Shown one piece after another: positions 30,846 to 58,900 of a stretch of 64,000 nucleotides of DNA (position 1 is the first letter of the stretch; every line of letters starts with the position of its first letter). The translations under genes were made by a program, and so were the position numbers. The notes under the pieces are model-generated. The model did no database searches. It had not been told where the DNA came from and was given only the letters and a program-made list of their open reading frames with translations. The stretch is taken from positions 1 through 64,000 of the IMG/VR virus record IMGVR_UViG_3300032243_001028. One strand, written 5' to 3'. Source of the stretch: a virus (lineage: Duplodnaviria > Caudoviricetes).

Positions 30846-33800
30846 GTGAGTAAGAAAATTAATCTAATTAAGCAGTTTGATGACCAGCTATCAGTCGAGA
30901 TGCCAGAGGATATCTCTATATCCGAGCTGATCTTTAACTTCACGCTAGAGCAGAACGCTCGAGTTGAAGAGATTCGTAGAGTCACCGAACAGCAATTAGA
31001 AACTGTTGCATTGAGATCACTCACTGCTTCTGCAGCAGAAAACCTTACTACCGACGTACGTTACTTCAACGTTCTTCGTGAGCTTTCGCATTTCCTTAGT
31101 TTGGCTACAGAAGGCCCACGTCCTAACGGTCAAGATCGTAACACTGACCTACTACCTGAATACCACCCAAGTTCTACAGCCGAGTTGTCACTTGACCCAA
31201 TTACGTTTCGTACTCGACGTGGTGCTTGGTACTCAGCAGATCCACGTATTGAAGATGAAGAAGTTCGTTCACTGGTTGCATCTGTCTACAGTGCCCACCC
31301 AATGGACGTACAATTTCAACACGCATACACACGTCTGCTAGCTCTTCCAGCTGGAAGTCTGCCAATTGACGTACTTGTTAGCCCTCTTACAGCCGGTCTC
31401 TTAAGCAAAGTAAAAAGTGTCTACCACTCAGCAATGAATGTTTTCAAAGGTAAGAACTCGAGCTTTTGGCGTTCACTTCGTGCTAAGCGTCAGCTCCGTG
31501 ACTCTAAGGGTCGCTGGATCGAAATGGGTGGCGGTGGAAAAGTAAATGTACGTTTTCCTAAAGGAGACGTTAGAAGCGTTACAGGTAAAGTTGCAGGTTA
31601 CTCCGAAAAGGGTGGCTACATAGACTTTGAAATTACAGATATCCCGGGTTTGAAGAACGGGCTTTATAAAATTCCAGCGTCAGCTTTTGAAGCCGTTGCA
31701 GCTATTCTACCTGCCGAAGCAGTTAAAGATCTTCCAGTTGGAAAAGCGGTTCCAAATGATAACGACATTGTTGATATTAAAGATCTCGTTGTTGCTGATA
31801 TGCCAGAAGGCTGGGTAAAGAGCCCATATACTCCAACCAGTTCAACCTTTACTGGTAATGAACTTCACTCTGATGCAGTCTATGATTCAGCTGATGGCTA
31901 CACCGCTTCTGTAGTAAATAAGCCTAATAAAGTTACTGAAAGTTTTATAGAAAAAGCTAAAGAAGCGTATGGCGATAGCCTAGAAATAGTAGGTACTGAT
32001 GGTACTGAAAACCTAGACATGACTAAGCCAGTTATTACTGTTTGGGGTTCAAAGCGTGCTAAGGGAAATAAAAGCCCTATTGGTTTTGCGCAAGACTGGT
32101 CCGGCGTACAGAAGATTGCTGGAGATGAAGATGATCGTTTCGGAGATAAAGATAACCAGGATCTAACTCCTGAAGAAAAACCTGCTGTAGAAGCAGTTGT
32201 TCCTAGCCAAAACCGCGAAACTCCAGAAGAAGAACCTAAGCCAGAAGTTACTCTACCCGATGCTGACTCTGACCCAGATGGCTCTATGCCAGAGGGCTGG
32301 AACAAAATTGGCGAGCACACCTACCTATCTAAAGATCGTAGATTCCGAGTAACTTACGGATATGGTCAATCAGATGTTGCTTTGGTTTATGACCAGAGAA
32401 CTGGCGATGTTTCATTCCAACCAATTATGTCTAATGGTGTCTACACCTTAACTGAGCGTGACGGCAATGGTGATTTCACTGTTGATACTCAGGTGCCATT
32501 CTTTAACTGGCCGCAAGTAGAAGATCAAATTCATGCTATTAAGCATCTAGAAGCTCTTGATCCGCTATTTAACCCTAATATTGCTAACGTTCCTGAGTAT
32601 CAAAGAGAAATGTACTCTAAGTTAGATCCAGCAGAACGTTTCCAGTACGACTATTTTGGTCCTGGATCAGACATGATCAAAAAAGCTGATGCAATCATTG
32701 CACAGTTCTTACAGGACACTTATCCTGGAGACTTTACCACTCCAAAATTTAATGACAATGGTTACTGGGCAGGGCGTGGTTCAAGATCTGATACTGCTGC
32801 AAGAATTGTTGACTCTGGAGACAATCTGAAAAGCGTTCAAATTGTGACCAAGCTTCTTGGTACAATAAAAACACATCCTATTTTTCCGGGTGAAGATGAG
32901 AATGAAGTTCTTGCTGAGGCTCTTAGAGAGTATTTTCCGGTACCAGATAACCTACATAGATTTAGTTTGTACTCAGAGTTTAAAGACTTTGATATCACTA
33001 ATGGTAGAAGTGCAGCAAAAACTCTAGATGCTGTAGGCGAAATTTTGTACGATATGTACACAAGTTCTAAAGATGAATCAGACAATAAAATTCAAGATGA
33101 CGTTTACTACGTTTCTAGACTACAAAAAGGTCTAATGAACTATGTAAATCGTAGAAACGCAAAAGATACAGACCTAGGTCCTTCTCAGAACAGAGTTAAT
33201 GATGACTACGTTCCAAATGAAGCTCAGATTAGACGTCTAGTTGCAATTCTAAACTCTAGGTACGTTCACGACGAGCCAGATCTCTGGGATAAAGTTCGTG
33301 AAATTAAAAAGAATCCTGAAGAGCACACTGTAAAAGAAGTAAATGATCTTGCAGCATATATTGAAAAAAACTTCCGTGAACTAACCTCACCTGAAAAAGG
33401 CATGGCTTCATGGCTTCAAAAGTCTTACCTTAACTGGGCCCTAGACAATAAGAACTGGAATAAACAAGAAGCAGAAGAGATTAGAAAAAAGATCGATGAT
33501 AACACCCTAACCAGGGCAGAGTACGATCAACTTCACGAGAAAGCTTATAAACTACCTTTTAAACCGCCTCAGGCTCCGGCACCTACTCCAGAAGATATAG
33601 AAGAGCTAGAAAAACTTAGAGCAGCTGATAACACTGTAAACGGTAAACCTGATTACTGGCTAGCAGATCAGCCTACTGAAAGTCCTAAGTACCTTAGCAG
33701 CAACGTTCCTCAAGAAGCTATGGGCCCTAGCGATGGTCAACTTGTTGGTATTGAAAGATTCTTAGAGGATAGAGATATTCCTCAAGATTTAGTCCAAGAG

Positions 33801-36800
33801 TTTATGGACAACTACAAAGACATGAATGCTCGCGAGATCCGTGAATGGTATTACACATTCAAGGAGCATCCATTCAAAGAGCAGTACAAACCTAAGAACA
33901 AGTACGGGCTAGTTGCTAGAGATTTTGACGGTGCATCTGACAGAATGCTTGCCAGTATTGAACGTATCTTTGACAAGGGATTAGCAAGCGACAGAGAAAT
34001 TGCTGCAATTGTCAAAGCTGTCCCTAGAATGAACAAGTACGAGGTAAGTACTCAGATCATGTCCGAGCTTAAAGCTCGTGAAGATGCTCACGATAGTATT
34101 CTAATAAAGAAAGCTATTGAAGGTGGAGCGTCTATTAATGACCTAAACCTGATGGATCTTATTGGTAGACCTAATGCTCCCGAAGGCTGGGAAGACTACA
34201 AGCCAACCGATGAAGCTCGTAAAGAAATTCTTGCTGATGAAAAGGATCAGGAAGAAGTAAAGCAATATGTTGACAAGCAAGCTCGTAAGAATGCTGCTCG
34301 TAGATCTCGCTACGCTCTGACTCGTCTAGCAGCTTTTGTTGCTAATCACAGAGATCTTGTAAATGCTGATGGTAAAAGAATCATCGACGGAGCAGTCGAC
34401 GACATTAGAGACCTTAAGCGTATGCTTGACCTACGTAGAAAGTACGTAATTAAGCCTGCTAAGGTTATGGAACGTCTAGAGACTATTAAGAAGGGTCTAA
34501 CTGACTCAGATAATGCTCACACCTACGGACGTCTTAAGAATAAAAAGCCTAAGACTGTAGAGACTCTTGAAAAACTTGCAGCTGAAGTCGGATCTGTTAT
34601 GGGCAGAGATGGGTACCACAATAGTCCATTTGAAAATGACTACGACCCGTCTCTAGAAGATGAAGTAGATCACAGCACATCAGCAGAGGTATTTGAGCCA
34701 AATCCTGTTGAATCTCCAGAGATTCCAGTTGACACCGATCCAGTTCCTGGAATCATTGACTACTCTAACCACCCAAATAAACCTAGACCTCCTGCAAGAG
34801 TTAAACCTAAGGCTTTCTGGGGCGTTGTTCGCGATTGGATGGCTGGAGCAAAGAACTGGGATGATGTAACTGAAGCTTTAAGAGATAAAGTTCTACACTT
34901 TATTGATTTTGAAACTACCGGCATCTTTGACCCTTTACAGCCTCATGTTAAAAACGATCCAATTCAGATTGCTATATATAAAGTTGTAAACGGAGAAATC
35001 GTTGATAAGTTTATAAGCTACATGAATCCTGGATCTCCTTTAAGTTCATGGTCTATGGCAAATATAAAGGATGACAAAGGCAATCGAGTAACTCCTGAGT
35101 GGATTGCAAGTCTTCCAACTAAGAGTGAAGTTATTGCTAAGGCTTTGGAATTCCTAGGCCCGGACGCAATTCTAGCTGGCCACAACGTTGCTGATTATGA
35201 TTTAGAAGTTCTAAATAGAACTCTTAAAGAAGCCGGACTAGCAGAATATTCTCCTGCTGGAATGATTGACACGCTTGGACTAGCTGATCACATTTACAAT
35301 GTATTTAACAAAAAAACTAACCTTGGTGGTCCATATAAAGTAGGAGACTTTGGTATACATGGTTCTACCGCTCTAGAAGCTTTAGGAAGATACGAAGGTA
35401 TTCCTAGTAATTCATTACATAATGCAGCTAATGATCTAGAACTTAACGTCAAACTTCTAGGGCAGATGCTTAAAAGAGCTAAGTCTGGAACCGATTTGAT
35501 TAAAGATAATATCTTTGATCTCGATGCTTCAGATAATGACTATGACGCAAAACTTGCTAAGTATATTCCAGGCTACGAAGCATTTGTCGAACGTGCTTTA
35601 AAATTTATAGCTGATAGAGCTGTTGAAAGAGCTGCTAGAGGAGACGAGCCAGATCCTAAGGATCTAGAGCAAGAAGCAAGAAATGCTCTTAACTCTACAT
35701 CTCCAGAAGGAACTCCTACAAACGATCGTCCTACTTTCTCAAGCCTGTTCCCTCCAAAGCCAGATGATGGTGAACAACCTCTTACTGAAAGCAACGTTAT
35801 TGATGATCCACTAAATAAGATCAGAAAACCAAGCCCTAAGCAGTTGAAGAGCGTTGAAAGACGTCTATTGGATCCCAGAGACATAGTATCTGCGGAACGT
35901 AGAGAAGAGATCTGGAAGTTGCTTCCAAATGTCAACTCTAACGAAATCGGTGATCTAGTTAAGGAAATGGACGGTCTAGAACTTGACTACGCCATTGCTA
36001 ACAACCTAGACGTTGATGGTTTACGAGTTCCTACTGGATATGACCTAGATAAGTTAAATACTTACCTAGATGAGAAATATCCTGACCGTCACAAGAAGAG
36101 TGGCCCTAGTCAACTTCGTGAAGGCGTGAATCAACAGAGCACTTTGTCTCAGCTATCTTATGCTATGACTAACTTGCAAGATGCTTTAAGCTCTACTAGT
36201 AGTCCAGCAGAAAAGCGTGCTATTAACTCTGCTATTAAGAAACTGGAGCAAGCAGCTCAAGATGTAATAGATAGTCCGTCTCAGAACAGAGAGCGTCCTG
36301 CAGATACTAAGAATAAAGCTGAGCTAGCTACAGGAAAACACGATATCGGATTCTTGGATAAAGAGTACACCGATCAGCAGAAAGACGCTATTGAAGCTGG
36401 TATTCGTGGATGGTCAATTGTCATAAAAGCTTTGGCTGGTACAGGTAAAACCACTACTTTGATTGCTCTTGCAAAAGCAGTACTTCACTACTTCCCTAAG
36501 AAGAGAATTCTTGCTATGGCTTTCAACAAAGCTATCGCAGACGAGAACAGACTTAAGTTCCCGGGAAATACTGAAGTTAGAACTATGGACTCTGTAGCTT
36601 TCAAAGCTCCTGTAAACAGCAAACTTTCTAAAAAGTTTACTGCTATGAAGAAACAATCAGACCCAAAAAATAGACCAATCAATGGCTTTTTAGATATAGC
36701 TGACTACTTTAAGATTCCAAACGAAGTAGAGCTTGCTAATGGACAAAGGATTTCTAAGTTCTTAGCAGTAAAACTTGTACTAAAAGGTCTAAATAACTGG

Positions 36801-39800
36801 ACTATTAGTGCAGATGACGAGATATCTAGAAAGCATTTCGATGAAGTGTTTGGAGATAAAATCGGTGGACCCGAGGCCTATACCCCATTCTTCTTAGATC
36901 TAGCTCAAAAAATCTGGAAAGAAAAACTGCAACCACACGATGAAAGTGTTCGTCAGATTCCTGTAACTTTCAACGATATGATGAAGAACTTTGCTCTTAG
37001 CCACCCTAACCTAAAAGAAGTTAACTCTAAGGGAGAAAGCGTCCACGGTCTCGGTGCGATTCCGGATATCATTTTGATCGATGAGGCTCAGGACGTTAAC
37101 GGGGTGTTCTTTAGACTAATGGATGAGCAAGAAACTTTGCACAACAATGGTATACAACTTGTTGTTGTTGGAGATCCTCACCAATCTATCTATCAGTTCC
37201 GCGGAGCTGTAAACAGCTTGAACATGTTTAGAAGAATGGTAACCCTACCTTTAACCATGATGTTCCGTGCTGGTCAGGATGTTGCTGATTTCGCTAACCA
37301 AGTTTTGGAGATTAAAGATGAGGACGATGAACGTCTAGTTGGAAATCCTAATAAAACTTCAAGTCTTACAACTCCTGGAAGTATGACAGATGCAGACATG
37401 ATCCTAACTACAACCAACGCTGATGCTCTGTCAGAAATTATGAGTATGGTTGGTAGAGGTCAACGTGCCGGAGTTATTCGAGAGTTTAAAGCTGAAATGA
37501 ATAGTTTCTTGGCTACAGCTAAATGGTTATTGTTTGGTGCTAATCCTAAATACCGTCCAGCAAATGCTCACCAGGACTTAGACTCTTATGATAGTTGGAA
37601 GCAGATGCTTGAACTTCATCAAGAAGATTCTGACCCAGCAGTGTCAAGACTACTAAGCATTATGGATCAGACTGAGGCACGACTAGAAGAGCAAAACAGA
37701 GACAGCGATGGTAAGGCAGTGTTTGCTGAGCTAAAGCGAATAGTCGATGGAGCAAGAATCATTGGTATTCAAGGATTCAAAAAGCCTTCGGATGGCAACT
37801 GGGGCGACGAAGGAGATCTTGGAAACTTCATTAGCTACAAGATTGAAAATGGGGCTATCCGTCTCTACAACACTGGTGATGCAAAGCCTTGGACACCTGA
37901 GCTAAAGAATCCAAATAATGGAACTAAAAATAACTCTGACACTTTATCTTCAATGGGATACACATGGGACACAGGTAAGACCTGGGACTGGACCGTCCCT
38001 GTTCAAGGAGATGGGTCTGAGCAACTAAATGCTCTTGTGGATGCTTTGAGTGGTGCAGATGTAGATAGCATTGTTCTAACCGCCCACAGAGCTAAAGGAC
38101 TAGAAGCTAAAAACGTTAAACTCTCGGGAACATGGTTTAAACCTAATCCACAAAAAGATGCTGAAGCTATTGAAAAGGGTAATATGCCTCGATCTCTCAC
38201 TGTGGAAGCACTAAACCTTATGTATGTTGCTGCAACTAGAACTATGGACGAGCTAGACCCTGGAATGCTTGACTGGCTTGATGGTAAAACAGACGAGTTT
38301 AAAGCAAAGCGTAAGGACTATATACGTCAACTAGAGGCTAAGTCTAAGAAAGATCCTAACGAACCTACTCCACAAAAAACCGAGAGTTCGGGTCCTCAGA
38401 TTGTAGAAGTAGACCCTAATACTCTTCAAGTAGGCGATATCGTAGCTACTGCTAAAGGTAATAAGAGAATTAAGATGATAAGTCGTCACGATTCCGATGA
38501 AGTTAGCGTATTCTTTGAAGCTATTGATGGCGGTGGCGGTGCATCATATGTCAATGGCCAGCAGGCTAAAAAGGTTATCGGAGGCCCATCTCAAAACCGT
38601 GAAGGTGCTACCAACCCTGATAGTAAGTATGACTATACTGCTGACTGGAATACCGAATATTTAGGTGGACCTGAAGGAAATGACTACAAGCACACTTGGA
38701 ATTCTCCGGATGGCAAGTATGAAGCTACTATCTCTAATGATGCTATCCAAGTTCGTAAAAACGGAACTACTATTTTCCAAGGGGATAATAGTATAGATGC
38801 TAAGTCAGATCCAGAAAACGTCAAAGAGTCTAGCTTAGATATAGTTGCAAAAGCTATTGAATCAGATTCGGATTCTACTCCTAATAGATCTACTCCTGAG
38901 CAGCCAGTAATGTCTCAGGAAGAGATTAATGCAGCCTATGACGAAGCTATTCAAGCCGAGTACGATTACCAGATGTCTCTTGAGCCTATCTCTAGAGATC
39001 CTCAGTATCCTGGCGGAGAACGCGGTCTAAAGGAGCTTACAGAGGCAGTTCACGCTGCTGAAAGAATGACAGCCGAGATCGAGACTCCTGTTCTTGACCC
39101 TATTCCTAATGGACTAGATCCAGAAGAGTACGTGGCTCAACTCAGATCAGCTCTGCCGAACAAGAGAATAGAACTTTACACTGACGAAAATGGTGACAAG
39201 TTCGTGAAGGTCTCTGAAGTGGCAAATAAATCTGGAATCTTTGGAGCTTCCGAGGCAATCTTTGGTTGGAAAGACCTAGAAGACAACGGTCCTTCTCAAA
39301 ACCGCGAGAATAACAAACCTATAAAGAGCAATAAAGATGCTGTAGATCAGGTTATGGCTCAGATTACCGAAGCTATGGATAAGGGAATTATTCCTTGGAA
39401 GAAGCCTTGGACTGGCGGTGGATCTTACCTACCTACATCAGGCGCTACTGGTAAAAACTACAAGGGTGGGAACCTGATCATTCTAGAAGTTCTAAGTCAA
39501 TTTAGAGGCTACAAAGGTACCCGCTGGTACACAAAGAATGCTATTGCTAAGCTTGGTGGCTACGTCGACGAAAACGATGGTGTGCTTATAACCAAGGTTG
39601 TGAAGAGTAAGTACACTGTAAAGCCAGATGAGACCAAAACTATCATTGACCCAAAGACTGGTGACCAGAAGCCGGATGATGGTTCTAGAACCAAGACCAG
39701 ACTTGACATTGATGTTGTTTACAACGAAGATGTGGTTAAGGGTATTACTATTCCGCCACTTCCTAGAAAAGATCCACCTCCTATGCACGAAGTAGAAGAT

Positions 39801-40550: not shown

Positions 40551-40618
40551 TTAAATCTTTATCCAGATACTTTGGTATACTATTTAAAGACTTATTAACC
40601 ATTTCAAGGAGTATTTAC

Positions 40619-40765
40619 ATGGAAAATTATTTGAACCCCGACCACTATACTCCTGAAGATGAAGAGTATTGGACTGCTATCTCTTTTCCAAACCCAGATC
40701 CAGATTTCCTATATGATAATGAAGGCACAGAAGATACTGAGCTAAAAAACACACCTTCAGAGTAG
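40619..40765 (+). CDS. Small acidic protein (48 aa, not in ORF track)
   Basis: AAGGAG SD; MENYLNPDHYTPEDEEYW... Confidence 0.5.
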   Translation: MENYLNPDHYTPEDEEYWTAISFPNPDPDFLYDNEGTEDTELKNTPSE

Positions 40766-40782
40766 AGACATAGGATATATAA

Positions 40783-40986
40783 ATGGACGAAAATAAAAAG
40801 TCTGAGGCCGAGCCTATGCTTACCATAGAGTCTTACAGAAATGATGAGCACATTGTTAAGAAAGTGCCGTACTCATCTCTATCGATTGAGCAATTAGTAA
40901 ATCTAACTTTAGAAGGCTCTAAAGCCGCCAACGAAGAGTTGCAACGCTTAATCGGAGTAGACATCCTTAAGGATGGCGGAGAATAG
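40783..40986 (+). CDS. Small hypothetical protein
   Basis: AGGA SD; stop overlaps the start of giant 2. Confidence 0.6.
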   Translation: MDENKKSEAEPMLTIESYRNDEHIVKKVPYSSLSIEQLVNLTLEGSKAANEELQRLIGVDILKDGGE

Positions 40987-46900: not shown

Positions 46901-49900
46901 GCTTGGAGAGCATTACATTAGAATGCCTAAAGATTCGAGGTTTGCTGCAACACTTTCATATATTGAAGGTCAAGGCCATTGGTACGTTAAACTACACGAT
47001 GTAAATCGTTTTTCTGATGACGAAAGAGGTATAAAAATTATACCTCTCCCTGAAACATACAAAACTATTAAAGGTGACATAAATGATCCTAAAGCGTGGG
47101 AAGAAGCTTTAAAAGAAGCTAGAAAATTTATATCTGATGCAATAGCCCGCAATGGCGGTAAAAATGTTCGTTATGGATATGAGCACCGTCCAATAGAATC
47201 TTTAGATGATGTTAGGGTAAATGACTATATAATTTTTAGAACTAGCTATCCGCCTTCCATAAACTATGCTGATACCGATCATCCAGAAGAAAATATTTCA
47301 GGAATTATAGGTAAAGTACTATCTATTGGTAAAGATAAAGATGGCAACCGTGTCTTCAAAATTCAAAAAAGAGACGGTAAGATTAAAAATATTAAAGATA
47401 AAGACCTAGACTATGTCGGCGGTGCAGTAAGATTCTCTGACGATGATCCAAATATTAATGTATCTACAACTGAGATCGTTAAAAAACGACTTGCAAAACG
47501 TCAAATGAGAGAATTACGTTTTTCTATTGGAATGGATATAGAAGAAGATCCTAATAACTCTGAAGATTCTTTGGAAAGAATTTATAAAGCTATAGAAGAT
47601 AAAATTGGACCAGATCTTATTGAAAATCATAAATTTATACCAGGTTTGTCTAAAGCTCTTTCCAAAAAAATGTATGATAAGTCAAATACTAAAGGCTACC
47701 TCACCGAAGAAGAAATCTATGATATAACCGATAACTTTATAAAAAATTATTCTGATGAAAATAAATCTAAAGCAACCCCAGTTCAACCTACTGAAAATCA
47801 GCAGCCTGCTACGGAAGAAACCACTCCTACAACCGAATCAAAAGAAATAACTGGCGAGCATAACTTCCCTCTACCGGATGATGTTCAAATGTTCCCTGCA
47901 GGTGTGGGAGAACCTTACGCTAAATATGTAATAAATGGAGAAGGATTTCAGCACGAAGCCGACTATCCTGACGTTCGTGTAAAAGATGGACTTCGCTATG
48001 GAGTAGAGATTTATTATGAAGAAGCAATTGAGCCTAATAGCTACAACAAAAAGGGAAGAGTTGCTGGTTGGAGAGTAAGCTTATTAAATAACAAATGGCG
48101 AGAAGATATGTCTAGAAGTAGACTTATCGACTATAGAATTTCTGAGATTCCAGGAAATATTAATGATCCAGAAGCTTGGAAGAAAGCTGTAGAAGAAGCC
48201 AGAAAAATGTTGGCTAATGCAATAGCTGAAAATGGTGGAAATAATAATCCTTACACATCCGAATACATTCCTTTAGAATCTTTGGATCAAATTCAATCTG
48301 GCGACTACCTAATGTATGGCGGCCACTTCCCTCCAAATACTAGATGGAAGGGAACTAAGAGCGAAGAAACCAGTCCTAACTTCTATGCACAAGTTGTATC
48401 CGTTAAGACCGATGAAAACGGAAATAGAATTTTTGAAATTAAAGAACCTAACCGTGCACAGGGTGGGTATTACGATAATGTCTTTGTTAATGATGAAGAA
48501 TTTTTAGATAAATTTGGTGGAATAACCGGCCTAGCTCGCTACTCTGACGAGAACTCGAACGTTAAGCCTGCTGCTGAACCTGTAGCCGAAACTAAGGTAG
48601 AAGAAGAACCTAAAGAACTTACCGAGGAAGAACGTCAGGCTAATATAGATGCTTGGACTGAAGTTGGCCAGCTTTACAGAAAGTATCTAGCCGCTAAACG
48701 AGGCAAGAACATGAAGCGCGAAGCTAAGCGTTTGAAGCAAGAGCTTAGCCCGTATCCTGCTGTAATGCTGCATGAAAAACTTAGCGATTATAAAGATATT
48801 TTAAACAACACTAGAAACTCTTCAACAGATGAAAATGAGAAAAAAGCTATTGCTAAGAGAATAGCTGAACTTGTCGACGCAATGAAGCAGCTAAACATAT
48901 TAGTTAATAAGGGTGTAAAAGAAGGTGCCGGCAAACCAACAGATCCTCTAGACTTCAACTTTGACAACCTCTTTAGGGATATAGAAGTAGAAGATGGCAT
49001 CTCTGAGTCTGACGTTGAAGAAGCTGCAGAAGAGCCAGAAGTTGTAGAAGAACCAGCAGCCGAACCTACAGAAGAACCTAAGAAAAACGTCATTGAGACT
49101 GCTGGCGGAGTTCTAGACTTTGAGGGTTTATCTCCAATGCAACTAGGAAAAATTAAAGCCCACCTAGATAAAAAAGTTCGCTGGAATGGCGAAGTAATGA
49201 CCTACCGTGAACTTTATACTAAATTTGCTATCGGTAGACATAAGAGTCAAAACCTTAAAGATGTTAACTATGTAAAGGGCGAGTCAGTTAAGTCTTGGGG
49301 GCCTATTAAGTATTTCCTTTTTGTAGATGAAAATGGTGGCATGATCGATGTCCCTAAAATGATCTATGATGCTTTCAAACCAAATAGCGATGATCCAAAA
49401 TTAGATTCAGATGCCACTGCTCCAGTTCAAGAAGCTAAAATGGCTGAAAGACAAAAAAAGTGGGATGAGGAAGATAAGGCAAAAGCAGAAGCTGAAGCTG
49501 CTAAACCTATTGAAGAAAAGCCAGAGGAACCTGTTGAAGCCGAGCCAGAAAAACCTGCTGCAGTTCCTATTACTCCAGTAGAAACTCCTAAAGATCTTGG
49601 ACCTACTCAAATAACCAAAGATACAGGTAAGCAGTACTTAGCTGAAAAAATTGATGTTGGCTGGACTTTGTATGGTCCAGATGGTTATGCTCTTGGAGTT
49701 GTAGTTAAGAAAGATACTCTAGGTAGAGTTGTTCAGCTAACCGTAAGAGGTCCTAACGGAAAAGAATCTACATATAACTTCAACATGCTTACTAAGCTTT
49801 ACGCTTTTAGTCCTAAAGATAAAAAGGATATCGAGAAAGCTAATAAGACTAAGCCAGCTACTGAACCGGAAGCTAAAGAAAAATCTGAAGAGCAACCTAA

Positions 49901-52900
49901 ATCTGAGCCAGAGGTTGAGGAGCAGCCTGGAGAAGAACTTCCAGATAAAATCTCCCGTGAAGACGGCTACAGACTATTTGAAGCTCTTAAAAAAGTTTAT
50001 GATTTCATTCACAGAAGTAAAAAAACTGAAGACCCTGATGCTGCTAAAAAAGATGCAAATGATAAGGTTAATCAACTAGCAAAGATTCTAAACCCTGAAG
50101 ATGTAGATGATTTTATTCGCTATGTAGATCTAGAAACAGCTTTTAGAAAGATAATGTCTAGTAGAGATTTTCTAGATAATTTTGAAGAATATATAAATAA
50201 TTATTCTTCAGGTAATGGTGCTGAGGTTAACCCTATACACAGGGGTGCCGATGGTAAAATAATCAACAAGGGAGATGATCTAGTTGTTGTTGATAAGGAT
50301 GGAAATCTTAAAAAGATAAGGCTACAAATATTTAAAAAGCCTAACCCTAGGGCTCTAAGCGATAAAACAGATTTTATTGAGTGGGGATATCAACTCAGGC
50401 TTGATGGAAATAAAAATCCTGAAATTGTAAACATCAACGACTCTAAAGAGTCATATTCCTTGGATAATGTATTCCACACTCAGGATGAGTCTGAGATCAG
50501 AAAGATTATTTCTAATAGGGATAAAGTTTCACCTGAAGCTCCGACAGCCCCTGAAGCTGTAGAAAATGCTGCTTACAATGGAAATCTAGAAGATGATCTA
50601 AGTGCTTTTAAAAATGTTCTAGAGAATGCAATTGAAAACTTTAGAAATCAGCCTGGCGCAGACAAGAATGTCTACAAAGCTGCAGCTAAAGAACTTTACA
50701 ATGAACTTAAGAAGCTAAACTCACTTTACGAAGATTCCGCTACAAGTGGCAATGATCTAGAGCAAATCCGTAACGTTTACGACGACAAGATCCGCGATCT
50801 AGGGGACATTCAATCAGCTAAAGAAAAGTCTAATCCTAATCAGAATAGAGAAAACTTTGTAAAAGATCTAAGAGGTCTGCAAGAGGGACTTATAGATGAT
50901 TTTGAAGCCGAGAGAGATCTTGGAATTATGGGAAGCTACTCTCCATACAATGTACTCAGCTATAGTGATGAAGACAAAGCAATTCTGCTTAAGAAAGCTA
51001 CCGCTGCCAGACTTCTTCAATACATGCCAGATGTTAGTTTTGAAGGCCTATTTGATTCAGTAGTGGCAAATTACACTAGAAAAATTTTTCCTTTTGGTGG
51101 TTGTGAAGCAGCTATACATGTTAAGAGTACTGTATACACTAATAACGCTCCATATATAGGTGGAGAGGGGTTGGCGTATAAATTTGACGGCACTGAAGTT
51201 AAAAATAGTGCCGATATGGTCAGACTTTTGGATACAGATATGTCTAATTTGGTAGAGGGTAGCCGAATTATAGGATCATATATTAGATTTTCCTCGGAGC
51301 TACCTGAGGTAGTTGTAACAACTATTACAAAAGAATTATTAGATAGAGTAAAAAATGTTAAAGGATCTAATTCTTCAAGTAATATTTTAGATTTTATGAA
51401 AAATGAAATGAATTTTAAAGTCTACTCCAGCTCCTCTAATCAAGACATGGATGATCTTAAAGAGATATTAATTGCTCACTTGATAAGAAGTTGGGCTATT
51501 ACATCAAATGATAGTGGTTATAAGTCTCACGCATTACAGAGACTTGCTGCAAGAATGTTTGCTATGGATAGCAGTAAAACTGCTGGTTGGCTGTATGCTG
51601 CTGGCCATGATCAAATTGATATTGATAGCCATATTCTTAAAGGAAATATTCCAGCCGATATAAATACTGTAGATAAGCTCGAGCAGTATGCATCTGATCT
51701 TGTGGATGAAGAGATTAGCAGACATTTTGATATCTACTCAAAATTTATAATGGGTATGTACAACTCTACTCAAGACCTGCTAAAAGACATAGGAATTGAT
51801 GGGGTAGTTGTATATAGAGGCTCTCAGGATCAAGAGCTTATCGCTCCAGATGGAACTCCTATAAAGAGGAACACTAGAGTAAATAATCTAATGAGTGCTA
51901 GGGCAAAGCAGCGTCCTATGTCTTCATGGTCTACATCTATTAGAACAGCATCTCAGTTTGCTGGAGGTCTATCTCCTATTATTATGGGTAAAATAGTACC
52001 TGCTGAAAAAGTTATAGCTATGCCTGGTACTGGTTTTGGATGTTTTGAAGAGAATGAGGTAGTACTACTAGGGGGGGATCTAGATGAAGTACTTTATGGT
52101 GTACCAGGAAATATAGATCTAAACGCATTTAAAAATAGCAGTGCTATGAATCCTCCTAAGCAGATTCAAGCCCTAGACCCTTCTACTGGACTTGCCGGTA
52201 TTTTACCGCCAAAGCCAACCTTCCCTACGTCTCAAAATAGGGAACGCGATCTACCAATTGTTGAGGTAGATAACAGCGAAGAGAACTCAGATTGGATTAA
52301 ACAGAGCGGCTGGGATCTTACTACCAACGTTGATGATTTCCTAAAAATGTTTACCAGCAGAGATCAACTTTCAGACTTTATGACTAAGCCTACTGCTCAA
52401 GGTATGCCTGAAGAAATGCTACGTAATCTATGGCCAGCTGCTGACAAGCACTTTGAGAAAATAGAGTCTGCTCCTAAGGAAGAAGAGTCTAAGTACCTTC
52501 CAGAGCCTTTTGATCCTAGAGATAAAAAAGCGGATTTAGATGAGTATTACAATTATGACTATACTAAGATGCCTGATGGCACTCCTTTTAATAGTGACCA
52601 GCAGCAGCAGATGGATGCAATAGCTAAAAGATTAGAGAACATTCTTAAAAATAATGATGAAGATGCTAACTCTTTTGCTGTAAAGAATTTAAAAAACTTT
52701 AGAAGAACTTTATATCAGCAAATAATTGCTAAGCCTACCAAAGGCTCTTCTACTACAAGAGATAGCATTCTTAAACAGGTAGAGTTTAGCGATAAACCAG
52801 CTGTAAAGTATTTTGATGAAGCTCGTGGACTAACTTACACAAGATATGTGGATAAGTTTACCGATAAATATGGTAGAAAATACTACATAGTTACTAACAT

Positions 52901-55900
52901 AGACGAAAGCTCTGGACGTCAGACTGTAGTAGCCTACGACCAAAAAAACTTTGAAGGTATGCCTCTACCTGAAGATTATGTAAGAAAAGACCAGCCTGTG
53001 TCTGGAATTAATGATGTCGGAGGACTCGATTCCTACATATTTAGAGATCCATCTGTGTCTGAAATCCAAAGTGTAATGGTTACTGATAGATACCAAAGAA
53101 GAGGTATAGCAACAGCCCTCGTTGCTGTTCTAGAGAAGAGATTAGGACTTCCGGTAGTTCACTCAGATAACTTATCAAGCATGGGATTTGCTTTCTCTAA
53201 CAGCATGGACCCTGGAAAGCCTGACCTTCACACCAATGAAAAGTCTATTGAACTTCAGAGTGACAATGCACCATCTCAAAACCGTGAAGGATTCTTCAAG
53301 AGAAACAAAGCCAAGAAAGAACCTTTTGATCCTACAGATCCTACCATCGATCTAGAAAAGTTCTATAACTACGACTACACTCAGATGCCCGATGGTACCC
53401 CATTCAATATTTATCAGCAGCAGCAAATGGATATTCTTAAAGATGCGATTGACAATGAACCTGATGATTTTGAAAGAAAACTGCGTATTGCTGAAAGAAG
53501 ACGTATCTATCAGGGATACACCGCTAAACCAAACTTAAAGTCTGGCACTAATCTTGAAAGTATTAAAGATCAGGTGAGACTTCTAGATGACAATACTTCT
53601 AGAATGAACTACAGCGGTGCTGGTAAACCTTATGCAGATCTACCATCAGAGTACAAGCAGAGTACTCAGTATATTGATGAGTTTACTGACAAGTACGGCA
53701 GACAGTACTGGGTAGTTACCAAGGTAGTAAACGGCCTAGGCATGTCAAACGTAAAGCTTTACGATAAGAGTAAGAACTCCCTACAAGATCTTCAAGATAA
53801 TTCAGAAGATAGAACTCCTGTGTCTTCATTAGATGTCTTTAATAACAAAATTAGCATGGTCTACACTTCAGATAGATATGTAAGAAGAGGTCTAGCTACT
53901 GCAGCTCTTCACTTAGCAAGAGAGCGTTCTGGAAAAGAAGTTCAACACTCAGAAATGTTAACCTCTTTTGGTAGAGCATTCTCCCTTTCAGTTGACCCTA
54001 ATCCTGATCTTCATAGAAATGATGAATCAAAAGTTACTCTGTCTAACAATCAACCTTCTCAGAACCGTGAGAACCAGTATCCGCCTGAGCCTTTTGATCC
54101 TAATGATCGTACTCTCGATCTAGATACTATCTATAACTATGATTACACCAAGCTTCCTGACGGAACTCCGTTCAATGCTAAGCAACAAAAAGCAATGGAT
54201 CACGAGAATAAAATTCTTGAAGAAGCCATAGCTTCTGGGGACGAAGCAAAAATACGTGCAGCTAAAATTGCTAGAAGATATACATATAATACATTTATAA
54301 CTGTAGCTAACCCCGACTCCAAAACAACCACTGAAACTATAGCCGATCAGATTACTCCTGGTAAAGCTAAACCTAAAAAGTTTACTGGGTTTGTTCGTTA
54401 CACAGATAACTTTACAGATAAATACGGTAGAAAATACGTGATTTTCACTGATATAAGAACTGATGATAAGGGGGACAATTCTGCAATGGTAACAGTGCAT
54501 GATATGAAGAGTATGTTCCTTGAGAAAATTTTTGTCCCTGAGGGTATGGAAAATGTTGATCAATTTGGAGGAAAAAGTCTTCACATAGCTTCATTAAAAG
54601 TTAACGATGATGATAGAAAAGATCCAAATGCTGCTGCTTATATTGGTATGGTACTTACTGATGATGCGTATAGACGCCGTGGTCTTGCAACAGCAATGCT
54701 GTACTTAGCTCGTAAACATTACAGCAAGCCTGTTAACCACTCAAGCACTCTTACCATGTACGGTAAAGCTTTTTCTAACTCTGTAGATGCTGGAAAACCA
54801 GACGTACACGATTCTCTAGAATCTAAGCAACTACAGATTGATCTCCTTAAAGAGAAGGGTCTTCCTGTAAAAGAGTCTGAACTTGATGGCGATGAAATTG
54901 ACTATGGACCTAATCAAAATAGAGAAAATATTGAAGAGCCTACTATTCTTAATGAATATCGTGAAGTAATTCCTCTTAATAATTCCTATAGAGATAAGAA
55001 TGACCCAGATCTTGACCTTACACAGTGGGTGACTGGGGGCACTAAAATATATGGAATAGGTAATGGCGGTAACCCACTGGGATACGTCAGAACTGAAAAG
55101 CTTGCCACAATGAAAGGCAATCTTGCAGATATGGAGAGCAGTACATCTTCTATAGCCCATGACCTCGAAGACGGAACTGGCTACTTAGAGCCGGTACTAG
55201 TTTGGTACAACCCTCTTACTGGAAGAGCTTTTATTGCAGAAGGAAATCATAGGGTTGAAGCTGCACGTATAGCTGGAAGAGAGTATGTGCCTGTTGTAGT
55301 TGGCGTTAGCACTGTGGACTTTAAAAATCCAACTACAATGGAAAGATCCGGAGGAGTCGGAGATGTAGTTTTAAATAAGGATGGAAGTCTAGAAAACTTC
55401 AAGAATGCTAAAGATGGATCACTTATAAATCCATACCACCTATTTAATGACGAGGATCTTTTATACCCTAGAATCAATTTGGATCCAAAAGATGTACCTG
55501 GATTTACAGACGTACTTAAAATACAGTCTGATCTTTTAAATGAGCTTATGGCTGAGAATGAAGAGACTGGACTTAATGAGATTGCTACGTGGTACGATCC
55601 GGATGCTTTTGACATAGATAGTTCAATTGGACATATGGGCGGAGCCTCTGAGCAATTAAAAGAGATTACCGCTAAAAATATAGGTAGTAATATGTTATCT
55701 TCTCCTAAAGATATTTTGGGAGCATTAGATCATGCCATATCTATCAGTCAGGTAGTCAGATCTAGGTTGAGTTATCTAGATAGTCAAAAGATGGCTCTAA
55801 AAGCTTTAGATAGTAAATCGGATAATTTAAATGAAAATTCTATTATATTATTTATTGATGACTCTGAGCACTCTCCATATGAAGGATTACATATAGAAAC

Positions 55901-58900
55901 TCTAAGAGAAGTACTAGATTCCATGGATCCTTACGATGAAGAACTGTACGGAAACCCTTACGATGAAGAAACTATTGACTATAAAACTCTTTTTGACGAT
56001 TACTATGCAAATAAAAATAAAAAACCAATTTTCTTTGACAATCCGGAAGACATAGAGGCATTTAAAGAAAAAGCCGCTTCAATACTTGTTGCGCAGTGGG
56101 CAGAGACATCTAATGGTAGTGATATGCTATCTCACGCTTTACAGATTGCTGCTGCTGAGACATTTAAAATGCCTGCTGGTTCGTGGTCACCGTGGAAAGT
56201 TCAAAGTAAAAACGCCCAATATACAAAAGATATTTTAGAAAATGCAGAATACTACTATGGAATTCACAGTTCTGTTCTTAAAGATTTCTTAAAAACTATG
56301 TACGATCTTACCCAGGATCGATTTAAAAATTATGGAATAAAATACTTAACTCTTTACAGAGGTACTGGAGTAGACGAAGAAGCTTTAAAAATAGACACCG
56401 GTATTGAATACAATGGCATAGGAGATGTTGAAATATTGCAAAGACCTATGTCAGCTTGGGCTTGGCTTCACGGTGATGCTTTCAACTTTGCTACTAGTAG
56501 GTTGCAAGAAAGAGCCGGAATGTTTATGGGAACTATTATTCCTGTTGAGCAGGTACTTTCTATTCCCGGCACAGGTTTTGGTTGCTTTGAAGAAGCTGAA
56601 GTAGTTCTACTGGCAGGAAAAAATAGACTAGTAAGGGCTGTTACTAGTGATTTTTCTAACCCTACTCTTGATCAAAAAACTTTTATTGCTGAGAATGCAA
56701 GTAAAGTAATTTCTTACTTACTGGACCAGCTCCCTAAAGATAAAAACGCTTTTGATAATCTTATTGAATTTAACAAGGGTACTCCTAATACTGCTGGCCC
56801 ATCACAAAATAGAGAGATTCCGTCTATCAACGTCGATGATAGCGTAGAAAACTCTGACTGGGTTATCTCCGAGTTTGCAAAAAAGAAAAAACTAGATGCT
56901 AAAGAAAATGAACTTCCTGAAGGATCTGGTCAAACTAATCCAGTTGAGGAACCTATTTCCTTAAATGAGCTACACAGAACATTTATTACAGCACTTCTAG
57001 CTGGTGCCGGAGATCAGAGAACTAGACCCCTTCCTGATGCAAAGCCAGAGTGGTTGGCAGCAGATGTAGAAACTGATAATTTAACAATGGCTGAAAAAAA
57101 TGCTATTTATACGTGGTACATGAACGTTGTTAAGGGAGATGGAGCTAGTAGTGACAATCTATCTATTAATGCTCAGGTATATCTTACTAAGCATATAATT
57201 CCTTTAATTAATAGACATGCTGAGGATGATATGTTGCTTCCTCACCACGATATCTATATAAATAAAGATAATAATGTGACTATTAAAGTTGTTAGATTTA
57301 TAATTAATCCAACTAAGAAAAATGGTAAAACAAATGTAAATACCGAATACAGAGCTGCTACAGCTGCTGGAGTGGCTAAATTTGCAAATAAACTTTCGGA
57401 TGTATTATCTAGAGTTAAATTTAAGTTCCCTGTAAAAGAGCTTCAAGTAATTATTAGTCACCCTAGTATAGAAGATTACTTCAAGCCATTTACTAGAGAT
57501 GATGGTACTCGTGGCCGAAACTTAGCTGGGTTGTCTTTCCCTCACATGTTTGTTAATGGTCAAATTTTGAACGAAGAAGATGTTAAGCCTAATCCTAAAC
57601 TCACTGAAAATCCTAGGGCAGATGCTACAGAACTAGAGTCTACAATTGCTCACGAAATAGGCCACGTTCTTCAACAAAAAGGCATCATTAATTTTAACGA
57701 TCAGGCTACAAAAGATACGCTTCGTAGATTTATGACTGAATATCCTCTAAGTGACTATGCAGCTACTGATGAAGCAGAATATCTAGCGGAAGCATATGCT
57801 GGAATGATGATATCCGAAGATGGTATTGGAAGGCATAAAGAAGTTGCTGACTGGATCAATGATCAAATTGCTACTGTTGATGAAAGAAAAGAAAAAGCTG
57901 CCATTGATCTTCTAAAGGGTATGCTAGAAAAACTTGGTATTCCAAATAATAGTAAACCTAGCCAAAACAGGGAAGGTTCTAGAGAACAGATTATTGCATC
58001 TGCGGCTAAGGACATTGCTTCTAGCGGTATCGGATTTACTCCTGGAAAAATTAAAAATGACATAAGCATAGCAATTGATGGTCCTGTAGTACAGATTGAA
58101 GGATTTCCTAAAAAAGATGCAGTAGCCCCATCTGATCAGGCTACCGCCATTAAAAATGAAATAATCGGCCTAGGACATATGATTCTAGATGATGCTAGAA
58201 CTATCTCAGATGAGCAAGCTAGAGCTGAGGGTCTTATTCCTGAAGGATTTGATGCTGAAGAATATAGAAAAAAACTAGAAAATGATGCTAGAGCTTTAGA
58301 ATTAGAAATATCTAAAGGAGATAGTAAATTTAGAGCTATGGCCCAAGACCTTATGAGGAATGCTTTTAACAGGCTTTCTTATGAAGATAAAGAAGAGGTA
58401 TTCCAAAGTTTAAAACAAGAGGCTGCTAAAGAATTATCTGGTAAAGATGTAAATGTTTTTAGTGCAGAAGAAACTTTCAATATGCTTCTAGTTGAGTACG
58501 GGGATGACCTTTCCCATAAACTTGCTTATGATTATGCTACCCCACATTCAGAGTTTATTTTTGATACTGGTAAAACTGTGCTACAAAGAGTTAGAAGTAA
58601 AAAAACTTTAAGATTAACTAAAGATGTAGAAGAAGTAAGAGCTTTAATAGATGTTACGGGAGCACACGAGGGCGGAGAAACTATCCTAAGTCTGCTTACC
58701 AAATGGGCTATTCGAACAGGTAAAATTGACACATCAGACCTTGCTAAGAAAGCAGCTGAAATAAAGGAAGTAAGAGATCGGCTTAGAGCTTCTCCAAAAG
58801 CAGAAGATTTTACTAATAAATATCATTCTATAATTGGTAAAAATATTAAATCTCAGATGGAAAAGTCTGGAGTTGAATTTGACTCGATTCCTGCACATCA

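What the first reader, a model, noticed from the sequence alone, without database searches (positions are those of the whole stretch)
32202..57974. PSQNRE: a recurring peptide that partitions two giant head-module proteins into effector units (candidate polyprotein processing system)
Seen: exact PSQNRE at 32202, 36276, 38586 and 39291 (giant 1) and 46089, 53271, 54054, 56799 and 57957 (giant 2). Variants are PSQNRV 33180, PSQLRE 36105, PAQNKE 41736, PNQNRE 50835 and 54909, and TSQNRE 52227 (weak: PNQFR 42819). Codons differ between copies (CCT/CCG/CCA, TCT/AGC/TCA, CGC/CGT/AGA/AGG), so the peptide rather than the DNA is conserved. Copies lie in polar linkers at domain boundaries: before and after UvrD, before ArdC, before the giant 2 DEDDh, around ART1, between the GNATs, around ParB+ART2, and before the C-terminal domain. 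I did not see the motif in other proteins of the window. Known: phage polyvalent proteins combine ArdC, zincin, ART, GNAT, helicase and nuclease domains and are thought to be delivered with the DNA; these two genes sit between portal and protease. Inference: about 9500 aa of effectors are made and packaged as polyproteins, then cut at PSQNRE (by one of the two protease-like domains, an internal zincin or a host protease) into separate enzymes small enough to eject. Alternatively the motif is a repeated docking signal.
Basis: partly seen in the sequence, partly recalled or inferred. Interest (0 to 1): 0.95.

Follow-up and report, generated by a model that had tools for sequence, protein, structure and literature searches.

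The report
Clade-specific junction peptide in phage polyproteins
Two giant proteins that this uncultured phage encodes between its portal and capsid genes are divided into enzyme-sized modules by the peptide Gly-Pro-Ser-Gln-Asn-Arg-Glu, and related phages carry a different peptide at the same joints, which fits cutting sites for a phage-specific protease, although no cutting has been shown.

Summary
PSQNRE occurs 9 times exactly, with 5 one-residue variants and 2 weaker copies. All lie in the two giant ORFs (3234 and 6251 aa) and nowhere else in any frame of the 135-kb genome; 0.0002 exact copies are expected.

The key new result is comparative. At 15 orthologous positions, relatives whose flanks are about 70-90% identical carry G-PSPKEE instead. 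Others carry PSQSKK or PS[QP]K[EQ]E, and a more distant clade carries G-FAQxPG. Both giants of one genome always share one code. Codons differ between copies. Flanks are polar and indel-rich. Cassette swaps and a unit deletion break exactly at the motif.

A reader encoded by the phage is the simplest explanation.

The giant 1 zincin and the prohead protease do not co-vary with the code. The M78-like module is absent from the PSPKEE clade.

This scan has noted similar junction peptides in other phage genomes. My three literature searches found no description.

The parts
30846..40550 (+). Giant 1, 3234 aa polyvalent protein: DEDDh exonuclease, UvrD-like helicase, ArdC-N plus MPTase-PolyVal zincin. 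Six motif sites divide it into units of 452, 326, 975, 57, 770, 235 and 419 aa.
   Evidence: ORF; Pfam PF00929, PF00580, PF08401, PF18818; sites
40986..59741 (+). Giant 2, 6251 aa: DEDDh exonuclease, three HExxH regions (aa 872, 5556, 6076) and GNAT modules. Ten sites plus one decayed site give units of 250, 361, 1090, 1582, 464, 348, 261, 285, 630, 386 and 594 aa.
32202..32219 (+). Motif copy PSQNRE (giant 1 aa 453)
   Evidence: the orthologous column holds GPSPKEE in P0004-6
33180..33197 (+). Motif copy G-PSQNRV (giant 1 aa 779)
36105..36122 (+). Motif copy G-PSQLRE (giant 1 aa 1754). It opens a 57-aa unit that is deleted as a whole in P0009.
36276..36293 (+). Motif copy PSQNRE (giant 1 aa 1811), 31 aa before the UvrD domain
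38586..38603 (+). Motif copy G-PSQNRE (giant 1 aa 2581)
39291..39308 (+). Motif copy G-PSQNRE (giant 1 aa 2816), 14 aa before ArdC-N
41736..41753 (+). Motif copy PAQNKE (giant 2 aa 251); PAQNRE or PSQSRE in close relatives and GPSPKEE in class B
42819..42836 (+). Decayed copy PNQFRI (giant 2 aa 612); GPSPKEER or GPSPKQER at the same column in class B
46089..46106 (+). Motif copy PSQNRE (giant 2 aa 1702)
50835..50852 (+). Motif copy PNQNRE (giant 2 aa 3284). Identity to P0027 and P0029 falls from 90-95% to 9-30% right after it, so it is a cassette boundary.
52227..52244 (+). Motif copy TSQNRE (giant 2 aa 3748), the other boundary of the swapped cassette
   Evidence: lies in a coil segment with pLDDT under 50 in model m5456ee9bc4f9
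53271..53288 (+). Motif copy PSQNRE (giant 2 aa 4096), between GNAT-type modules
   Evidence: model residues 367-372 lie in the coil segment 365-390 with pLDDT under 50
54054..54071 (+). Motif copy PSQNRE (giant 2 aa 4357), between GNAT-type modules
   Evidence: model residues 628-633 lie in the low-pLDDT segment 627-648
54909..54926 (+). Motif copy G-PNQNRE (giant 2 aa 4642)
56799..56816 (+). Motif copy G-PSQNRE (giant 2 aa 5272), before the M78-like module that class B lacks
57957..57974 (+). Motif copy PSQNRE (giant 2 aa 5658), before the C-terminal domain
43263..44015 (+). Giant 2 aa 760-1010: HELGHLWNREKH domain, a zincin-like candidate reader. It is 78-92% identical within class A and 51% and 36% identical to two class B genomes. 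It is not found in 4 near-complete relatives without the motif.
   Evidence: (feature look-alikes at 0.88-0.90, a lead only)
57975..59741 (+). Giant 2 C-terminal domain with invariant HExxH...EH, a candidate reader. It is 85-97% identical within class A and 34-36% between classes. Its fold is unresolved.
39828..40181 (+). Giant 1 MPTase-PolyVal zincin (HELVH). It is highly conserved and its few differences do not follow motif class.
57591..57731 (+). M78/IrrE-like HEIGH stretch in giant 2. The module holding it is absent in class B.
31020..31034 (+). LTASA at giant 1 aa 59-63: an assemblin-type site shared with the portal, protease ORF and capsid protein, and conserved in giant 1 homologs that lack the junction motif.
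27847..29652 (+). Portal protein
   Evidence: phrog_776, E 1e-100
60432..64000 (+). ORF of 1511 aa that runs on to genome position 64967 and holds the prohead protease (aa about 776-1184). It carries no junction motif.

Best explanation
G-P-S-Q-N-R-E is the window clade's version of a junction signal. It marks every module boundary in two virion-associated cargo polyproteins, about 9500 aa in total. Most likely it is the cleavage site of a sequence-specific endopeptidase encoded by the phage. That enzyme would cut the giants into about 18 separate proteins: exonucleases, a helicase, an ArdC-type unit, acetyltransferases, ART-like units and zincins. Cutting could happen inside the capsid or after ejection. 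Enzyme and sites would co-evolve, as in viral polyproteins whose protease reads a 6-7 residue site. Shown: the motif, its restriction to the giants, its orthologous and concerted switching, its linker context, and its coincidence with exchange breakpoints. Inferred: packaging of the giants, cleavage, and the enzyme. The leading candidates are the two clade-restricted HExxH domains of giant 2, at aa 872 and aa 6076.
For: (1) Chance is excluded: 9 exact copies against 0.0002 expected, and none outside the giants in six frames of 135 kb.
(2) Selection acts on the peptide: codons differ in the window, in class B and in the GFAQxPG clade.
(3) Concerted switching: 6 of 6 giant 1 sites and 9 of 10 giant 2 sites align with G-PSPKEE in class B, inside flanks that are about 72-90% identical. 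The tenth site lies in a module that class B lacks. P0007 has PSQSKK. P0008 and L011 hold mixed PSQKEE and PSPKEE.
(4) One code per genome: P0005 and P0031 share one contig, as do P0006 and P0032. L085, L087 and L089 each hold both giants with the same code.
(5) In relatives too, all copies lie in the giants; none is in the portal, ferritin-like protein, protease ORF or capsid gene.
(6) Modules behave as units bounded by the motif. Extra modules in class B each bring a copy. The ART-like cassette 3284-3747 is swapped exactly at the motif. The 57-aa unit 1754-1810 is deleted whole in P0009.
(7) Linker context: flanks are polar and poor in hydrophobic residues and rich in indels. In a low-confidence model, 4 of 4 sites lie in segments with pLDDT under 50 and no helix or strand of 4 or more residues.
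(8) The giants look like head-internal substrates. Giant 1 carries the assemblin-type site LTASA at aa 59, as the portal does at aa 61. That code occurs 8 times in the head module against 1.3 expected from shuffles.
(9) Proteolytic processing of polyvalent proteins has been proposed before, without a defined site (PMC5512222, passages read).
Against: No cleavage product has been observed and no proteome exists for this uncultured phage. No protease is identified. The giant 1 MPTase and the prohead protease domain do not co-vary with the code. The two giant 2 HExxH domains diverge with class, but so do several other segments. The C-terminal domain is also only 43-52% identical among class B genomes that share nearly one code. 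Its fold could not be resolved. Pro directly after the conserved Gly would be an unusual P1' residue if the cut is G|P. One unit would be only 57 aa. 69 of 80 related loci, and 14 of 24 giant 1 homologs with similar architecture, show no recurrent peptide, so such sites are not a general requirement. Both structure models are of low confidence (mean pLDDT 55 and 50).
Confidence: 0.5

Rival explanations
1. The motif is a repeated docking peptide, a short linear motif. A capsid-interior, scaffold or portal-associated partner binds it, stapling the long chains inside the procapsid or ordering their exit. The chains are not cut.
For: A co-evolving binding partner explains concerted clade-specific switching as well as a protease does. 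Short linear motifs also sit in disordered linkers. A 382-aa protein encoded after the capsid gene has two alleles that follow motif class: 78-94% and 75-86% identity within classes and 42-48% between them.
Against: Both giants and the protease ORF already share a single N-terminal RDxxG[RK][WF] element, and giant 1 has a propeptide-type site, which look like the packaging address. A docking signal need not flank every module, nor travel with each inserted module, nor mark exchange breakpoints. The divergence in the 382-aa protein is concentrated in what look like insertion segments, while its N- and C-terminal parts stay conserved, as expected for a surface-exposed protein.
Confidence: 0.22
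2. The prohead (assemblin-like) protease itself cuts at the motif, as T4 gp21 and the phiKZ/SPN3US proteases cut internal and ejection proteins.
For: The giants lie in the head module, and giant 1 carries a prohead-type N-terminal site. Most versions of the motif end in Glu (QNRE, PKEE, PKQE, FAQE-PG). T4-type and phiKZ-type proteases cut after Glu; the SPN3US motif is discussed in PMC10052503 (passages read), and the T4 and phiKZ motifs are recalled.
Against: The motif is absent from the capsid protein, portal and protease ORF. These carry a different enriched code, [LIV][TVI]A[SA][AGS], for example ALVASG at capsid aa 340 and ALVAAG after the protease domain. The protease domain has only a few conservative differences fixed between motif classes. 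P0007's PSQSKK has no Glu.
Confidence: 0.1
3. The motif is read by something other than a phage protease or docking partner. It could be a site of post-translational modification (the invariant Ser), a host factor acting after injection, or a hinge that keeps modules independent.
For: Gly-Pro-Ser is invariant across the GPS clades while the tail varies. The giants carry GNAT and ART-like domains that could modify proteins.
Against: A plain hinge would not keep 7 residues identical in 9-13 copies, nor switch them in concert. A conserved host factor predicts a conserved motif. The more distant clade uses G-FAQxPG, which has no Ser.
Confidence: 0.1

Closest known systems
Polyvalent proteins of phages and conjugative elements (Iyer, Burroughs, Anand, de Souza, Aravind 2017, PMC5512222; passages read)
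   Same: Giant multidomain proteins that combine ArdC-N, an MPTase zincin, helicase, nuclease, GNAT and ART-type domains. They are thought to enter the host with the DNA, and processing by embedded zincins has been proposed.
   Different: The passages I read define no cleavage or junction sequence. Here a discrete 6-7 residue code marks every joint and switches between clades. The MPTase hub domain does not co-vary with it.
Prohead-protease maturation of head and ejection proteins (T4 gp21, phiKZ gp175, SPN3US gp245; PMC10052503 passages read, T4 and phiKZ recalled)
   Same: A short motif shared by many head-internal proteins directs cutting inside the capsid. Ejection proteins are among the substrates.
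   Different: Those motifs are 3-residue, loosely defined, shared with the capsid protein and portal, and mostly remove N-terminal propeptides. This motif is 6-7 residues, confined to the giants, internal and multi-copy. A separate assemblin-like code exists in the same phage.
Polyprotein processing in RNA viruses with clade-specific 6-7 residue sites, such as potyvirus NIa or picornavirus 3C (recalled, not from a call)
   Same: One long translation product, a site at each mature-protein boundary, a protease embedded in the polyprotein, and sites that co-evolve with the enzyme.
   Different: This is a dsDNA tailed phage, the products would be virion cargo rather than a replicase, and both the protease and the cutting are unproven.
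Junction motifs of polymorphic toxins (VENN and similar pre-toxin motifs; recalled)
   Same: A short conserved peptide marks the point where variable cassettes are exchanged. The ART-like cassette here is swapped exactly at the motif.
   Different: There are many junctions per protein rather than one before a C-terminal toxin. Codons differ between copies, so the DNA offers little homology for recombination.
Targeting peptides of capsid or encapsulin cargo (T4 capsid targeting sequence, encapsulin cargo-loading peptides; recalled)
   Same: A short peptide on cargo that a shell-associated partner recognises. A ferritin-like protein is encoded next to the giants.
   Different: Those signals are terminal and usually single. 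This one is internal, in 6-13 copies, and lies at every module joint.

Membership tests
Phage polyvalent proteins (Iyer et al. 2017) | A single polypeptide joining several unrelated effector domains, including hub domains such as ArdC-N and the MPTase zincin | tested here: met
   Giant 1 has PF00929, PF00580, PF08401 and PF18818, all above the gathering score. Giant 2 has PF00929 and PF00583.
Phage polyvalent proteins (Iyer et al. 2017) | Encoded by a phage or conjugative element, in phages typically with the head genes | tested here: met
   The order is terminase, portal, ferritin-like protein, giants, protease ORF, major head protein.
Phage polyvalent proteins (Iyer et al. 2017) | Delivered into the host with the DNA | not testable with these tools
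   There is only indirect support: a prohead-type site at giant 1 aa 59.
Prohead-protease (assemblin-like) cleavage sites | The same motif is present in the capsid or scaffold protein, the portal and the protease's own maturation sites | tested here: not met
   There is no xxQNRE outside the giants in the whole genome. Those proteins carry [LIV][TVI]A[SA][AGS] instead.
Prohead-protease (assemblin-like) cleavage sites | The specificity change is mirrored by change in the protease domain | tested here: not met
   Only a few conservative differences are fixed between classes in aa 776-1134.
Viral polyprotein cleavage sites | A site at each boundary between mature units | tested here: met
   16 sites plus 1 decayed site bound units of 57-1582 aa. 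Pfam domains never span a site. Exchange and deletion breakpoints fall at sites.
Viral polyprotein cleavage sites | Sites co-evolve with a cognate protease encoded in the same genome | tested here: inconclusive
   The sites switch in concert. The two giant 2 HExxH domains diverge with class, but the association is not specific.
Viral polyprotein cleavage sites | Cleavage is demonstrated | not testable with these tools
   The phage is uncultured and no proteome is available.
Cargo-targeting or docking peptides | The peptide binds a shell, scaffold or portal partner | not testable with these tools
   The only partner candidate comes from co-variation: the 382-aa ORF after the capsid gene.
Polymorphic-toxin junction motifs | The junction is conserved at the DNA level and serves homologous recombination | tested here: not met
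   Copies differ at synonymous positions, including Ser AGC against TCN and Arg CGN against AGR.

The most novel reading that the evidence does not exclude
Tailed dsDNA phages of this group run a true polyprotein system. A dedicated high-specificity endopeptidase carried within the cargo reads a 7-residue junction code and releases about 18 anti-defence and takeover enzymes from two chains of about 0.35 and 0.7 MDa. The code is rewritten clade by clade (QNRE, PKEE, QSKK, FAQxPG, and LSSG elsewhere). Modules can therefore be swapped as cassettes within a code group, while cargo from a co-infecting relative with another code stays unprocessed.
Probability: 0.3. Interest if true: 0.85.

Novelty: new variant of a known kind. 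Interest (0 to 1): 0.74.

Why it matters
Polyvalent proteins are the largest and least understood phage weapons, and it is unknown how a chain of 3000-6000 residues becomes a set of working enzymes in the host. A defined junction peptide that changes clade by clade makes this directly testable. It predicts the exact ends of the mature products. It offers a reporter assay to find the enzyme. It gives natural specificity swaps (QNRE, PKEE, QSKK) with which to map recognition. It also gives an annotation rule for splitting such giants into functional units. If cleavage is confirmed, a specific protease and site pair could serve as a tool. The same pattern, with other peptides, appears in other uncultured phages noted by this scan, so the principle may be general.

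Tried and rejected
- Cultured relatives. The giants of Actinomycetia phage DSL-LC01 and Microbacterium phage Pumpernickel have no PSQNRE-like or other recurrent peptide, so no published proteome helps.
- Gene splits at motif sites. I mapped ORF ends of 80 related loci onto the window giants. The ends map to the giants' own N- and C-termini, not to motif sites. The one split found, in L019, comes from a 127-bp out-of-frame deletion that begins inside the motif DNA. It is an anecdote and may be an assembly variant.
The prohead protease ORF and the giant 1 MPTase show no class pattern. The M78-like module is absent in class B. The giant 2 HELGH and C-terminal domains diverge with class but not exclusively. 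Both are absent from 4 near-complete genomes without the motif; the positive control matched in 4 of 4 GPS-clade records. The whole of giant 2 may be clade-specific, so this pattern does not discriminate.
- Fold of the giant 2 C-terminal domain. The AlphaFold2 model had mean pLDDT 54.6. Foldseek against the PDB gave no match at E 0.001 or better. A profile search against PDB sequences gave only an Enkurin coiled-coil match, which I regard as spurious. Atlas look-alikes scored 0.80 or less. The zincin label for this domain rests only on invariant HExxH...EH.
- Complex prediction with the HELGH domain (A4, residues 1-220) and a 40-aa motif peptide (P0033). The verdict was no answer, score 0.02. 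It counts neither for nor against binding.
- Literature. The motif strings PSQNRE, PSPKEE, GPSPKE and PSQSKK gave 1 unrelated proteomics paper. 'polyprotein/bacteriophage/prohead protease/cleavage motif' and 'DSL-LC01/actinophage/polyvalent protein/largest gene' gave no paper describing junction peptides. Supplements were closed and may hold cleavage tables that I could not see.
- A 2A-like ribosomal skip, a DNA- or RNA-level element, and a recombination site were considered and rejected. The sequence upstream of the Gly is not conserved, and the copies differ in codons.

Full report
What the window is. The window is the first 64 kb of a single-contig virus record of 135,096 bp. Around the finding the genes run, all on the + strand, in this order:
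- large terminase, 22998-24395 (PF03237/PF17289);
- portal, 27847-29652 (phrog_776, E 1e-100);
- a ferritin-like/DUF5824 protein, 29671-30828;
- giant 1, 30846-40550, 3234 aa;
- giant 2, 40986-59741, 6251 aa;
- a 1511-aa ORF from 60432 that holds the head maturation protease (phrog_18402 and phrog_3244; weak Pfam S78);
- the major head protein (phrog_777), a 382-aa ORF, the major tail protein and a head-tail adaptor.

The nearest cultured relatives by DNA are Actinomycetia phage DSL-LC01 and Microbacterium, Arthrobacter and Gordonia phages, at 63-71% identity over the terminase and portal genes. An actinobacterial host is therefore an inference. Giant 1 is a textbook polyvalent protein, with DEDDh exonuclease, UvrD-like helicase, ArdC-N and MPTase-PolyVal zincin. 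Giant 2 has a DEDDh exonuclease, GNAT hits, a weak M78-like hit and three HExxH sites.

Composition predicts 0.0002 exact copies in 9485 aa, and there are 9. No unrelated 6-mer occurs more than 3 times. A one-mismatch scan of all six frames finds 14 hits in the window and the same 14 in the whole genome, all in the giants. With PAQNKE at aa 251 and the decayed PNQFRI at aa 612 of giant 2, there are 6 sites in giant 1 and 10 plus 1 in giant 2. They bound units of 57 to 1582 aa.

The decisive evidence is comparative. A search with giant 1 returned 24 proteins.
- P0002 and P0003 (85-88% identical) keep PSQNRE.
- P0004-P0006 (68%) have G-PSPKEE six times.
- P0007 has G-PSQSKK.
- P0008 has G-PS[QPA]K[EQY]E.
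- P0009 has G-PSPK[EQ]E.
- The other 14 of the 24 have no recurrent peptide, apart from P0021, which has [RK]LSSG[RK] five times.

In an alignment of P0001-P0009, the six window sites fall in the same columns as the other clades' motifs, within well conserved flanks. An example is ...FGWKDLEDNG-PSQNRE-NNKPIKSNKDAVDQV against ...FGWKDLEDTG-PSPKEE-SPKKPIKSNKDAVDQV. Exceptions are few. P0007 has a degenerate ASPSVKR at site 453. P0006 has PSPLVES at site 1754. P0009 lacks site 1754 because the whole 57-aa unit between 1754 and 1811 is deleted.

A search with giant 2 returned 8 proteins, counting the window's own. Six carry PSQNRE. Two carry GPSPKEE, 13 and 10 times. Loci L085, L087 and L089 each show both giants of one genome with the same code. 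Of 15 motif columns in the giant 2 alignment, 9 are shared by both classes. Five are class B only and lie inside extra modules, each of which brings its own copy. One is class A only and lies in a module that class B lacks. So 15 orthologous sites changed from QNRE to PKEE in place. Codons differ among copies in every clade examined. Gene conversion or a DNA-level element is therefore not the cause, and the peptide is what is selected. Mixed genomes look like intermediates: L011 has PSQKEE three times and PSPKEE four times, and P0008 is also mixed. The shared core is Gly-Pro-Ser.

How far the phenomenon reaches. Using the protease ORF as bait, I fetched 80 related IMG/VR loci, each with about 10 kb upstream. 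I scanned the upstream ORFs for any 6-mer recurring with one mismatch allowed.
- Eight loci, with protease ORFs 81-94% identical to the window's, have GPS-type motifs in 7-9 copies.
- Three loci (57% identical) have G-FAQxPG, with 9 loose matches over two ORFs.
- The other 69 have at most 3 copies of anything, which is the level shuffled sequences reach. One of these (L010) has no upstream sequence.
- One G-FAQKPG copy lies about 76 aa before a sequence stretch belonging to ArdC-N, in the same general position as the window's site 2816.

In relatives as well, every copy lies in the giants. This scan has noted similar junction peptides, with other sequences, in other phage genomes. Those are unchecked notes and I do not count them as evidence.

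The motif marks functional and evolutionary module borders. No Pfam domain spans a site. The flanks are more polar and less hydrophobic than random positions: 0.0005 of 2000 random sets reach the observed values, using 14 sites with 251 and 612 left out. Indels cluster beside many sites. Per-unit identity between class A and class B is mostly 72-86% but changes abruptly from unit to unit. For the ART-like unit 3284-3747, identity to P0027 and P0029 drops from 90-95% to 9-30% immediately after PNQNRE, and it recovers within about 30 residues after the next motif. An AlphaFold2 model of giant 2 aa 3730-4900 is of low confidence (mean pLDDT 49.6). Within it, all 4 motif copies lie in segments with pLDDT under 50 that contain no helix or strand of 4 or more residues, and three of them sit between three similarly folded alpha/beta modules. 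Because 49% of that model is below pLDDT 50, this is weak support.

A second, different code points to the prohead protease. [LIV][TVI]A[SA][AGS] occurs 8 times in the 12,788 aa from the portal to the capsid protein. Shuffles give 1.3 on average, with a maximum of 5 in 300. The other 24,109 aa of the proteome hold 4. The copies are at portal aa 61, giant 1 aa 59, giant 2 aa 5669, four places in the protease ORF including ALVAAG just after the protease domain, and ALVASG at aa 340 of the 682-aa capsid protein. The capsid site is where a scaffold-like N-terminal half would be removed. The giant 1 site is conserved even in homologs that lack the junction motif. The pattern resembles the Ala|Ser sites of assemblin-type proteases; that comparison is recalled. 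It suggests that giant 1 is a prohead-protease substrate and hence a head-internal protein. It also suggests that the prohead protease does not read PSQNRE. In line with this, the protease domain shows only a few conservative differences between motif classes.

Who reads the motif. This remains open.
- The giant 1 MPTase is nearly invariant, and its few differences cut across motif classes.
- The M78-like module of giant 2 is missing in class B.
- The HELGHLWNREKH domain of giant 2 (aa about 760-1010) is 78-92% identical within class A, and 51% and 36% identical to two class B genomes. Its feature look-alikes are zincin peptidase clusters at 0.88-0.90, which is a lead only.
- The C-terminal domain of giant 2 (aa 5658-6251) has invariant HExxH...EH. 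It is 85-97% identical within class A and 34-36% between classes.
- Both of these domains are absent from four near-complete genomes without the motif, with a working positive control. The whole of giant 2 may be clade-specific, however. The C-terminal domain is also only 43-52% identical among class B genomes that share nearly one code.
- The 382-aa ORF after the capsid gene has two alleles that track the class cleanly. Its divergence lies in apparent insertion segments, which may reflect surface exposure.

Mechanism I commit to. The giants are made as polyproteins. They are addressed to the procapsid by their N-terminal parts: both share an RDxxGRW element with the protease ORF, and giant 1 has a propeptide-type site. 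They are later cut at or beside G-PSQNRE by a specific endopeptidase encoded by the phage, most likely one of giant 2's own HExxH domains. The motif, the switching and the linker context are shown. Packaging, cutting and the enzyme are inferred. I put this at about 0.5, the docking reading at about 0.2, and the prohead protease and other readers at about 0.1 each.

Novelty. Processing of polyvalent proteins by embedded zincins was proposed in 2017 without a site (PMC5512222, passages read). Prohead-protease motifs on ejection proteins are established in T4-like and phiKZ-like phages (PMC10052503, passages read). I found no description of a discrete junction peptide that switches between clades in phage polyvalent proteins, in three full-text searches. 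Supplements could not be read. I class it as a new variant of a known kind.

Noticed in passing
window 28027-28041 (portal aa 61), 31020-31034 (giant 1 aa 59), 57990-58004 (giant 2 aa 5669), 61446-64241 (four copies in the protease ORF, the last beyond the window end); genome 66128-66142 (capsid aa 340): A second short code, [LIV][TVI]A[SA][AGS], is enriched in head-module proteins: 8 observed against 1.3 expected from shuffles. It includes ALVASG in the middle of the 682-aa capsid protein and ALVAAG after the protease domain. It is probably the prohead protease's own site.
   Followed up: partly
window 31497-31517 (giant 1 aa 218), 41088-41108 (giant 2 aa 35), 61527-61547 and genome 64485-64505 (protease ORF aa 366 and 1352): An RDxxG[RK][WF] element, followed in the giants by xEMGxGxK..VR, is shared by the N-terminal parts of both giants and by the protease ORF. 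It also appears in the N-termini of distant giant homologs P0019 and P0022. It may be a head-targeting module.
   Followed up: partly
window 29671-30828: A protein with a ferritin-like domain and DUF5824 is encoded between the portal and the giants and is conserved in relatives (70-88% identical). This is an unusual head-module gene and recalls ferritin-like encapsulin cargo.
   Followed up: no
genome 67235-68383 (L083:7235-8380): A 382-aa ORF after the capsid gene matches no family. It has two alleles that follow the junction-motif class (42-48% identity between classes, 75-94% within). Its ends are conserved and its inner segments are variable.
   Followed up: partly
window 50835-52244 (giant 2 aa 3284-3748): The ART-like unit exists as two alleles only about 37% identical among otherwise close class A phages. 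It is exchanged exactly between two motif copies.
   Followed up: yes
L017:590-8733 and L019:6900-7250: A more distant clade uses G-FAQxPG as its recurrent peptide in two adjacent giants. In L019 a 127-bp deletion that starts inside one motif's DNA splits the ORF.
   Followed up: partly
P0021 (a distant giant 1 homolog, 2948 aa): It carries [RK]LSSG[RK] five times. This is another recurrent peptide, like one noted by this scan in another genome.
   Followed up: no
window 40619-40765 and 40783-40986: The 435-nt gap between the giants, of similar length in class B locus L085, holds two small + strand ORFs of 48 and 67 aa. The second ends at the start codon of giant 2.
   Followed up: no
window 40545-40550: Giant 1 ends in ...ALLGG. 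It thus ends in Gly, the residue that precedes most motif copies. This would match processed C-termini if the cut is G|P.
   Followed up: no
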